A stretch of 24,062 nucleotides of DNA from a virus, in the IMG/VR virus record IMGVR_UViG_2721755586_000001, positions 1 through 24,062 of that record; one strand, 5' to 3'. Shown here piece by piece: positions 6,184-7,313 of this stretch. A program made the translations under genes and the position numbers. Every line of letters begins with the position of its first letter. Position 1 is the stretch's first letter. The notes beneath the pieces are model-generated. The model saw only the letters and a program-made list of their open reading frames with translations, made no database searches and was not told the origin of the DNA.

Positions 6184-6747
6184 TTGGAGCGAGCTGTCAC
6201 ATATAAAAACAACGGCCAAATCAATATTATACTTAACGGACAAAAGCAAGTATTGGTTGATGCAGACTCAGAGGCAGAATACCTAGAAGCCTTGCAGAAA
6301 AATGAGGCAAAACACAGCATCTTACGGGAAATAGAGCGTGAAATGAACAGCCTTGTCGGTATGGATGAAATGAAACGAAACATAAAAGAGATTTATGCTT
6401 GGATTTTTGTTAATCAAAAACGGCAGGAACAAGGGTTAAAGGTAGGAAAACAAGCGCTTCATATGATGTTCAAAGGAAATCCTGGCACAGGAAAAACCAC
6501 AGTTGCAAGACTTGTCGGGAAGCTTTTCTTTGAAATGAATGTGCTCTCAAAGGGTCACTTAATTGAAGCAGAACGCGGTGATCTAGTTGGTGAGTACATT
6601 GGTCATACAGCGCAAAAAACAAGGGATTTAATTAAAAAATCACTAGGTGGTATTTTGTTCATTGACGAAGCCTATTCTCTTGCACGCGGAGGAGAAAAGG
6701 ATTTTGGAAAAGAGGCGATTGATACCCTTGTAAAGAACATAGTTTAG
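6184..6747 (+). pseudogene. spoVK: spoVK 5' part (AAA+ ATPase), interrupted at ~6735 by prophage; TTG start 6184 after AGAGGTG
   Basis: ERAVTYKNNGQINIILNG N-terminus, Walker A GNPGTGKT, Walker B ILFIDEAY; ends DTLVK-NIV* where SpoVK (recalled, ~322 aa) continues DTLVK-HMED. Confidence 0.93.
6725..6745. other. Approximate prophage attachment junction
   Basis: ...CCCTTGTAAAG|AACATAG...: last host-like codon AAG ends at 6735; exact core needs the other end. Confidence 0.7.
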
Positions 6748-7127
6748 GTTTTTATGCGAATGTATTTATCCCATTACCGAAACATGAGGTTGCTTACAAC
6801 TACAGATGGGAACTGCATTTGGATAAGTTTGATGCCATAAAGGAGCTGCACTTCAAACAGCTTAAAACTGTTAGGGAAATATCTGAGGAGATGAACATTC
6901 CTGATTGGGTTATTTTAGATTTATTTAAGTCTCAAAAAGTGGACAAGCTTTCTTTCACTGAGCTATCGAAAAGAAAACGAGCAATTCATTTTGAGAAGCT
7001 TTATGATTTACATTTCAACAAAGGTATGAGTTTGAAAAAGATTTATCGTGATTATGGATTTTCGCCACCGTACACCAGGAAAGTTTTCGAAGAACATGGA
7101 CTAGAGCACAAACACTTTATAAACTGA
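6735..7127 (+). CDS. Tandem-HTH protein or 3' fragment of one (frame open from 6723; only weak TTG start at 6819)
   Basis: Two HTH-like repeats IKELHFKQLKTVREISEEMNIP / LYDLHFNKGMSLKKIYRDYGFS; no stop between junction and 7127. Confidence 0.65.
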   Translation, partial: EHSLGFYANVFIPLPKHEVAYNYRWELHLDKFDAIKELHFKQLKTVREISEEMNIPDWVILDLFKSQKVDKLSFTELSKRKRAIHFEKLYDLHFNKGMSLKKIYRDYGFSPPYTRKVFEEHGLEHKHFIN

Positions 7128-7148
7128 ACATAGGTAAGATTAAATTAA

Positions 7149-7206
7149 AATGTATAGCCATATTTAGAATTGAGGTTAAATGGGTGTCTGCATATGGCTA
7201 TACATT
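7149..7206. repeat. 15-bp perfect inverted repeat with 28-nt spacer
   Basis: AATGTATAGCCATAT (7149-7163) / ATATGGCTATACATT (7192-7206). Confidence 0.9.
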
Positions 7207-7313
7207 CTACATAAAAAATATCTTTCATTCTAAGTACACCAATTTCAATAAAAACTGAACCTTTGATATAATGAGCATAACTCTAAAATACAGTAATAAG
7301 TTAGGTGTATCTG

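What the first reader, a model, noticed from the sequence alone, without database searches (positions are those of the whole stretch)
6723..7127. attP may lie inside a phage HTH gene: a two-way gene-splitting switch
Seen: the double-HTH ORF called at 6819 has only a TTG with a weak SD. Its frame stays open upstream through the junction (EHSLGFYANVFIPLPKHEVAYNYRWELHLDKFD...), and the first in-frame stop (TGA 6720-6722) lies in host spoVK DNA. Inference: integration cuts both the host gene and a phage DNA-binding gene, so excision would rebuild spoVK on the chromosome and a regulator on the phage circle, letting the phage sense its own excision. Caveat: 28 extra stop-free codons is modest evidence, and another frame is also open for about 30 codons here.
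Basis: partly seen in the sequence, partly recalled or inferred. Interest (0 to 1): 0.8.

Follow-up and report, generated by a model that had tools for sequence, protein, structure and literature searches.

The report
Prophage integrase gene split by integration
The small "double-HTH" ORF beside the broken sporulation gene spoVK is the cut-off last 130 codons of the prophage's own large serine integrase, so integration splits both genes and excision rebuilds both, as already published for the related Bacillus phage Goe14.

Summary
The frame of the 102-aa ORF (6819-7127) stays open back to the spoVK/phage junction.

attP does lie inside a phage gene, but that gene is the prophage's large serine integrase, not a separate regulator.

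- **Reconstruction.** The record is a 135,457-b provirus. Its right end carries the first 559 integrase codons, which run into attR. Joining the two ends at the crossover gives one uninterrupted 689-codon ORF.
- **Relatives.** It is colinear with the 693-aa integrase of free phages Goe14, BUCT082 and SPR (65% identity in the core, 54% in the tail). An unintegrated IMG/VR contig carries the same intact gene.
- **Prior work.** Kohm et al. (bioRxiv 10.1101/2021.11.22.469490) described this for Goe14: attP inside int, truncation on integration, and a leftover ORF of about 97 aa.
- **New here.**
  - This is a divergent member from the Bacillus pumilus group.
  - The crossover is narrowed to the dinucleotide AA.
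  - attP is a 19/26 dyad lying in a disordered linker.
  - The severed tail folds as two three-helix HTH units under strong purifying selection.
  - Relatives at about 40% tail identity have the same full-length gene when unintegrated.

Whether the long and short integrase forms set recombination direction is untested.

The parts
6184..6734 (+). Host spoVK 5' part: TTG start with SD, through the first two bases of the Lys-184 codon. In the lysogen the frame runs on to a TAG at 6745-6747 in phage DNA.
   Evidence: TIGR02881 spore_V_K positions 1-137, E 4.8e-78; translation; start region.
6733..6734 (.). attL crossover dinucleotide AA. Its partner at attR is G000 135330-135331, outside the window.
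   Evidence: Intact attB in a related genome (G025) matches both host flanks exactly and has Lys = AAA. attL reads AAG and attR reads AAA, here and in an independent lysogen (G001), so the G comes from the phage and exchange occurs within AA.
6735..6760 (+). Right half-site of attP. It forms a dyad with the left half-site at G000 135304-135329.
   Evidence: 19 of 26 positions are symmetric about AA; shuffles give mean 7.4 and maximum 15. The natural attP of the unintegrated contig L050 is also 19/26.
6735..6818 (+). 28 integrase linker codons (residues 560-587 of the rebuilt protein) upstream of the TTG that an ORF finder picks.
   Evidence: Gap-free alignment to Goe14 integrase 560-587; dN/dS 0.09-0.38; predicted disordered, pLDDT 59-69.
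6819..7127 (+). The 102-aa ORF of the finding. It is most of the integrase C-terminal domain plus the stop codon, not a gene of its own.
   Evidence: 54% identity to Goe14 integrase residues 559-689, E 9e-48. tblastn hits fall inside annotated serine recombinase genes of free phages.
6804..6932 (+). First three-helix HTH unit of the C-terminal domain (tail residues 24-66).
   Evidence: AlphaFold2 model with mean pLDDT 88; helices 24-41, 46-53 and 57-66. Z 5.2-5.7 to the HTH domains of GcrA, Tc3 transposase and Sin recombinase.
6954..7094 (+). Second three-helix HTH unit (tail residues 74-120).
   Evidence: Helices 74-95, 100-107 and 111-120. Z about 5 to the HTH domains of DeoR and Tn3 resolvase. 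The same unit recurs in multi-HTH repeat proteins that match Sigma70_r4 and HTH_7.
7146..7209 (.). Conserved 23-nt-arm hairpin just after the integrase stop. It marks the end of the conserved int-att module; similarity to related prophages ends near 7228.
   Evidence: Identical arms in the window, L048 and L007. The alignment diverges completely after about 7228. Folding gives -23 kcal/mol, z -4.8 on the + strand and -7.1 on the - strand.

Best explanation
The window holds the left junction (attL) of a 128.6-kb SPbeta-like prophage inserted in spoVK of a Bacillus pumilus-group host. The phage attachment site lies inside the phage's own large serine integrase gene, in a disordered linker between the canonical core and an extra C-terminal domain made of two HTH units. 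The core comprises the resolvase catalytic domain, the recombinase domain and the zinc ribbon with its coiled coil. Integration therefore separates codons 1-559, which stay at the right prophage end and acquire a meaningless host-coded tail, from codons 560-689, which land next to the spoVK 5' half as the apparent 102-aa ORF. Excision rejoins spoVK on the chromosome and the 689-codon integrase on the phage circle. That much is shown. The following is inferred. The long form can only be made from circular phage DNA, and I take it to be the integration form. The short prophage form still has every domain of an ordinary large serine integrase, and I take it to carry out excision, probably with a directionality factor that has not been identified. 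I rate the structural part at about 0.95 and the claim that long and short forms control direction at about 0.35.
For: - **ORF across attP.** A 600-codon serine recombinase ORF at G000 133655-135457 runs into attR. It has the Resolvase, Recombinase and Zn_ribbon_recom domains. Joining attR-left, AA and attL-right gives a 689-codon ORF with no stop.
- **Colinearity with Goe14.** Identity to the 693-aa Goe14 integrase is 65% over residues 1-529 with no gaps and 54% over 559-689.
- **Free phages.** In Goe14, BUCT082 and SPR the homologous stretch lies inside a 2082-nt integrase CDS. The Goe14 record marks the attachment site inside that CDS and also annotates a nested leftover ORF.
- **Natural attP form.** An unintegrated IMG/VR contig (L050) has the intact gene across a natural attP, while nine other lysogens have the spoVK junction at the same base.
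- **Site occupancy.** 46 of 49 genomes of the genus have an intact attB. The three without it are exactly the three with a full-length tail hit.
- **attP symmetry.** attP is a 19/26 dyad around AA.
- **Selection.** The tail has dN/dS 0.04-0.10 and is stop-free in every lysogen examined.
- **Distant relatives.** Full-length relatives at about 40% tail identity (P0007, P0011) are flanked on both sides by phage genes, as expected for the circular form.
- **Literature.** Kohm et al. describe the same split for Goe14 and propose that the long form integrates and the short form excises. Goe14 lysogens are inducible with mitomycin C, so the truncated form does not prevent excision.
Against: - Nothing contradicts the structural reading.
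- **Direction control.** No experiment or computation here shows that the tail affects recombination at all.
- **Short form alone.** By established knowledge of this family, an ordinary large serine integrase needs a directionality factor to recombine attL with attR, so truncation alone may not explain excision.
- **Directionality factor.** Kohm et al. found no sprB-like gene in Goe14. I did not screen this prophage, and such factors are too diverse for that absence to mean much.
- **Record limits.** The record ends 126 b into the spoVK 3' part, so the right flank is incomplete.
Confidence: 0.85

Rival explanations
1. The split is a passive by-product. attP happens to sit in a tolerant linker, the tandem-HTH tail is an accessory or dispensable DNA-binding add-on, and direction is set entirely by a separate, unidentified directionality factor, as in other large serine integrases.
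For: The short form keeps all canonical domains. The linker around attP is predicted disordered. The host-coded tail on the short form varies from 41 aa here to 4 aa in G001 through synonymous host differences, so it carries no function. Directionality factors are structurally diverse and easily missed.
Against: The tail is under strong purifying selection (dN/dS 0.04-0.10). The arrangement of core, attP-bearing linker and tail is kept in relatives down to about 40% identity, which argues that the tail at least matters to the phage.
Confidence: 0.4
2. The fragment left at attL is also expressed in the lysogen, from the TTG at 6819 or by read-through from the spoVK promoters. It would act in trans on the truncated integrase or on DNA, for example as a mother-cell-timed excision cofactor.
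For: The fragment lies directly downstream of the spoVK promoter region and 5' half on the same strand, with no terminator-like site between them. It contains almost the whole folded domain. B. subtilis-type copies have an ATG at the MHF position, which yields a 97-99 aa ORF. No sprB-like factor was found in Goe14.
Against: No start codon is conserved. The MHF position is CTG here and in L048 and TTG in L007, and it is simply a hydrophobic helix residue in full-length relatives. The TTG at 6819 has only a weak SD. By established knowledge, synthetic integrase fusions to a directionality factor favour excision, which fits poorly with the long form being the integrating form.
Confidence: 0.15
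3. This is a stand-alone HTH regulator gene that starts at TTG 6819, and the open frame upstream is chance (the default reading the first reader set out to challenge).
For: An ORF finder lists 6819-7127 as a 102-aa ORF. Many database proteins of 90-150 aa match it.
Against: The upstream 28 codons are homologous to integrase residues and are under purifying selection. The short database proteins begin at or near the junction motif, and where context was read (P0014) the protein sits at a spoVK junction. Free phages encode the stretch only as part of the integrase.
Confidence: 0.03

Closest known systems
Bacillus phage vB_BsuS-Goe14 integrase/attP (also phages SPR, BUCT082, BUCT083 and SPbetaL2, and the B. 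subtilis BS155 prophage); Kohm et al., bioRxiv 10.1101/2021.11.22.469490
   Same: Same target (the Lys codon before HMED in spoVK). attP lies at the same codon of the integrase. The core of 559 codons and the tail of about 130 codons have the same lengths, and the same leftover ORF appears at attL. The core is colinear at 65% identity and the tail at 54%.
   Different: The host belongs to the B. pumilus group. DNA identity is only about 71% in the tail, with no blastn match in the part of the core queried (the last ~170 core codons). The outer attP motif differs. The host Lys codon is AAA, so the shared core is 2 bp (AA) rather than the published 3 bp (AAG). The leftover ORF has no ATG.
SPbeta SprA/SprB with spsM, and the skin element's SpoIVCA with sigK
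   Same: A large serine integrase of a prophage or prophage remnant interrupts a mother-cell sporulation gene that is rebuilt by excision. The Goe14-type integrase is closer to SpoIVCA than to SprA according to Kohm et al..
   Different: In those systems attP lies outside the integrase gene, the integrase is unchanged by integration, and a separate small directionality factor is known for SPbeta (SprB). Sporulation-time excision is not shown for spoVK prophages.
SSV1-type integrases of archaeal fuselloviruses (from my own knowledge)
   Same: attP lies within the integrase gene, so integration partitions the gene and excision restores it.
   Different: They are tyrosine recombinases of archaeal viruses that target tRNA genes. 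The split removes part of the catalytic protein, whereas here the complete catalytic core survives.
Integration-dependent immunity of mycobacteriophages BPs and Brujita (from my own knowledge)
   Same: attP lies inside a phage regulatory gene, so the integrated and free genomes encode proteins with different C-termini, and this sets the lysogeny decision.
   Different: There the split gene is the repressor and the recombinase is a tyrosine integrase. Here the split gene is the serine integrase itself, and no effect on immunity is known.

Membership tests
Large serine recombinase (serine integrase) | N-terminal resolvase-type catalytic domain | tested here: met
   PF00239 at E 4.1e-22, residues 26-174 of the ORF at G000 133655-135457. 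Weak matches to the TP901-1 integrase and gamma-delta resolvase catalytic domains in the PDB.
Large serine recombinase (serine integrase) | Recombinase domain followed by a zinc-ribbon domain with a coiled-coil insert | tested here: met
   PF07508 at E 1.5e-14 and PF13408 at E 1.3e-07. A coiled-coil-like hit appears at residues 396-478 of the colinear Goe14 protein. The coiled coil was not modelled directly for this copy.
Large serine recombinase (serine integrase) | Short dyad-symmetric attP with exchange at a central 2-bp overlap | tested here: met
   19/26 dyad around AA. The AA overlap is deduced from attL AAG, attR AAA and intact attB AAA. The cleavage chemistry itself cannot be tested here.
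Goe14-type self-splitting integrase of SPbeta-like phages | attP inside the 3' part of int, so that the two prophage ends join into one ORF | tested here: met
   A 689-codon ORF runs across the reconstructed attP. A natural intact copy is found in L050.
Goe14-type self-splitting integrase of SPbeta-like phages | Integration at the Lys codon before HMED in spoVK | tested here: met
   The junction is at the same base in ten lysogens. Intact attB is present in 46 of 49 genomes of the genus.
Goe14-type self-splitting integrase of SPbeta-like phages | Homologous C-terminal extension of about 130 aa | tested here: met
   54% identity, E 9e-48, no gaps.
Goe14-type self-splitting integrase of SPbeta-like phages | Long form integrates and short form excises | not testable with these tools
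Independent HTH transcription regulator gene | Own conserved start codon and ribosome-binding site | tested here: not met
   The first start is a TTG with a weak SD. The candidate start positions are Leu or Met codons that vary among copies.
Independent HTH transcription regulator gene | HTH DNA-binding fold | tested here: met
   Two three-helix HTH units at pLDDT 88. PDB matches are generic only, Z about 5. No Pfam family reaches E 0.01 for this copy.

The most novel reading that the evidence does not exclude
The split is itself the directionality switch, and it is wired to host development. The long integrase, made only from circular DNA, would be locked into integration by its tethered tandem-HTH tail. 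The severed tail at attL sits behind the spoVK sporulation promoters, so it would be made in the mother cell and act in trans on the short integrase to trigger excision and rebuild spoVK. That would be a serine integrase whose directionality cofactor is a piece of itself.
Probability: 0.12. Interest if true: 0.75.

Novelty: new member of a known kind. Interest (0 to 1): 0.35.

Why it matters
The finding corrects an annotation trap. In lysogens of this phage group the integrase appears as a normal-length recombinase with a junk tail at one prophage end, and as an orphan "HTH protein" at the other.

It also shows that the Goe14-type arrangement is not a single-phage oddity. It extends to B. pumilus-group phages and to relatives with only about 40% tail identity.

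Three details give later experiments a footing. They are the 2-bp crossover, the dyad attP encoded in a disordered linker, and a tail made of two resolvase-like HTH units. How serine integrases with long C-terminal extensions control direction is an open question raised in the recent literature. This natural long/short pair is a ready test case for it.

Tried and rejected
- **Wrong att register.** Aligning attL and attR on the shared 6-mer AACATA would rebuild spoVK with two extra bases and break its frame. I rejected it in favour of the register that gives the in-frame attB found intact in related genomes.
- **Word-indexed search.** The search for longer proteins with the tail found nothing. 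The exhaustive representative search then found three fused integrases of 636-691 aa, so the blank was a limit of the index.
- **blastn with the core.** A blastn search of phages with the last ~170 core codons of the integrase found nothing, although protein identity to Goe14 is 65%.
- **Foldseek.** Searching the PDB with the whole tail model gave no match at E <= 0.001. The wide aligner gave only generic HTH matches at Z about 5.
- **Profile against PDB.** One apparent hit, 8vd6 'CAP repeat', is the sum of five weak repeats of a generic HTH motif. I give it no weight.
- **Single-protein scan of genome contigs.** It returned only one locus. An 18-sequence alignment was too diverse for the search for related loci, so I used a 6-sequence alignment instead.
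- **Not done.** I did not fold the full-length protein, because the tool returns no inter-domain contact information. I did not screen the prophage for a directionality factor.

Full report
**What is in the window.** The window is the first 24,062 b of a 135,457-b IMG/VR provirus record.
- A spoVK gene starts at TTG 6184 behind a good SD and matches the spore_V_K model over positions 1-137.
- It leaves the host reading after the Lys codon at 6733-6735 and stops three codons later.
- The rest of spoVK begins at G000 135332, at the far end of the record.
- Genes to the right of the junction are typical of the SPbeta 'yok/yol' end: an LXG toxin with YezG-like immunity, a Rap protein, YolD and a UvrX-like polymerase.

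**Checking the observation.** In the frame of the 102-aa ORF, translation from 6720 gives a stop, four host codons and then 130 open codons to the TGA at 7125-7127. The first possible start is the TTG at 6819, and it has a poor SD.

**What the open frame is.**
- The last 1.8 kb of the record holds a 600-codon ORF (G000 133655-135457) with the Resolvase, Recombinase and zinc-ribbon domains of a large serine integrase.
- This ORF does not stop before attR. It reads on into spoVK DNA in the wrong frame for 41 codons.
- I placed the crossover by requiring an in-frame spoVK. The only register that does this shares the dinucleotide AA, at window 6733-6734 and G000 135330-135331.
- Joining the right end, AA and the left end gives a single 689-codon ORF. 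The core's last residues, Ile-Gln, are followed directly by Glu-His, the first residues encoded at 6735.
- The prophage measures 128,597 bp from core to core.

**Independent support from free phages.**
- A blastn search with the leftover ORF hits five Spbetavirus genomes. The match falls inside a 2082-nt gene annotated as a serine recombinase.
- In the Goe14 record an 'attachment site' feature is annotated inside that gene. Its surrounding sequence is nearly the same as my reconstructed attP.
- The Goe14 protein is 65% identical to the core over residues 1-529 without a gap. It is 54% identical to the window's tail over 559-689, and that alignment begins at the junction itself.
- An IMG/VR contig (L050) carries the gene intact across a natural attP.

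**Population picture.**
- Within the genus of the nearest genome (a B. pumilus isolate whose SpoVK N-terminal part is nearly identical to the window's), 46 of 49 genomes have an intact attB. The three without it are exactly the three with a full-length tail hit next to a truncated spoVK.
- Ten lysogens from IMG/VR and genomes share the junction to the base.
- One genome has an intact attB identical to both host flanks of the window, with Lys encoded as AAA. In the window, and independently in G001, attL reads AAG and attR reads AAA. The G is therefore phage-derived and strand exchange lies within AA.
- This narrows the 3-bp AAG core reported for Goe14 to the 2-bp overlap expected of serine recombinases.

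**Anatomy of attP and the tail.**
- attP is a strong dyad, with 19 of 26 positions symmetric around AA. Shuffles give a mean of 7.4 and a maximum of 15. The natural attP of L050 also scores 19/26.
- It is encoded in a stretch that AlphaFold2 models as disordered (pLDDT 59-69 for the first 20 tail residues). The rest of the tail folds confidently (mean pLDDT 88) into two three-helix HTH units.
- The conserved Phe-Tyr-Ala/Val motif just after the junction coincides with the outer attP half-site motif, so it probably reflects a DNA constraint.
- Structure searches return only generic HTH matches at Z about 5. These include the HTH domains of the Tc3 transposase and of the Sin, Tn3 and Hin serine recombinases.
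- No Pfam family reaches E 0.01 for this copy. The same repeat unit occurs in long multi-HTH proteins that match Sigma70_r4 and HTH_7.

**Selection and spread.**
- dN/dS is 0.04-0.10 for the HTH part and 0.09-0.38 for the 28 linker codons upstream of the TTG.
- Every lysogen examined keeps the tail frame open. One genome has a decayed copy with TGA stops elsewhere.
- An exhaustive search of 1.84 billion representatives found 53 relatives. Three are fused integrases of 636-691 aa, and many are 90-150 aa proteins that begin at or near the junction motif.
- Where context was read, a short one (P0014) sits at a spoVK junction. Another (P0010) sits downstream of a DinB-family gene, so its setting is unresolved.
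- Two full-length ones are flanked on both sides by phage genes, as expected for circular genomes.

**Is the fragment a gene of its own?** Probably not.
- No start codon is conserved. B. subtilis-type copies have an ATG at the Met-His-Phe position, giving ORFs of 97-99 aa.
- That position is CTG in the window and in L048 and TTG in L007. In full-length relatives it is simply a hydrophobic helix residue.
- Read-through from the spoVK promoters cannot be excluded. No terminator-like site lies between them and the fragment.

**What is already known.** Kohm et al. (bioRxiv 10.1101/2021.11.22.469490) reported the following for Goe14:
- The prophage integrates in spoVK.
- attP lies in the 3' coding region of the integrase.
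- The integrase is truncated by 131 aa on integration.
- A 97-aa ORF identical to the lost C-terminus appears at the other end.
- The integrase resembles SpoIVCA rather than SprA.
- No sprB-like gene is present.
- The extended form might integrate and the truncated form excise.

I found no later experimental test of that idea. Goe14 lysogens are inducible. A 2025 study of directionality factors notes that some serine integrases with long C-terminal extensions may lack a cognate factor or use another solution.

**Mechanism.**
- Shown: the reciprocal split and its exact geometry.
- Inferred: the long form is made only from circular DNA and serves integration. The short form has every canonical domain and serves excision, most likely with an unidentified cofactor.
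- The host-coded tail on the short form is 41 aa here but 4 aa in G001, because of a synonymous difference in the host Asp codon. It is unlikely to matter.
- I could not test docking of the tail on the core or look for expression or attP reads.

**Verdict.** The feature is real and neatly resolved, but it is a new member of a published kind rather than a new mechanism. The gene that is split is the integrase, not a regulator.

Noticed in passing
L046:3414-5435 (GCA_001894745.1, BBYF01000002.1): Another Bacillaceae genome has a prophage at the same spoVK site. Directly after the integrase-tail fragment it carries a complete 331-aa SpoVK-like gene of its own (TIGR02881 at 383 bits against a cut-off of 423; 61% identical to the host N-terminal part). 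This may be a phage-borne replacement for the gene it disrupts.
   Followed up: partly
window 7146-7209, boundary near 7228: A hairpin with 23-nt arms just after the integrase stop is identical in three B. pumilus-group prophages whose coding DNA has diverged heavily at synonymous sites. Similarity ends abruptly about 20 nt later, which marks the edge of the mobile int-att module. On the minus strand it is followed by a U-rich run, so it may terminate transcription coming from inside the prophage.
   Followed up: partly
G000 135332-135457 (outside the window) and L008:2455-2469: The truncated integrase gains a host-coded tail of 41 aa in this lysogen but only 4 aa in B. pumilus 36R, because a synonymous change in the spoVK Asp codon creates a TAA in the integrase frame.
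   Followed up: yes
L013/L014 (G027:C15:122495-122763): One genome with an intact spoVK holds a decayed copy of the integrase tail with TGA stops at another place, apparently a remnant of an old element.
   Followed up: no
P0018, P0019, P0035 and others: Proteins of 350-840 aa built from five to seven or more tandem copies of the same HTH unit as the integrase tail. They match Sigma70_r4, HTH_7 and HTH_23, and their function is unknown.
   Followed up: no
L045:760-1149: A 129-aa tail-like protein (P0010) lies downstream of a DinB-family gene rather than spoVK. This may be a different integration site for this integrase clade.
   Followed up: no
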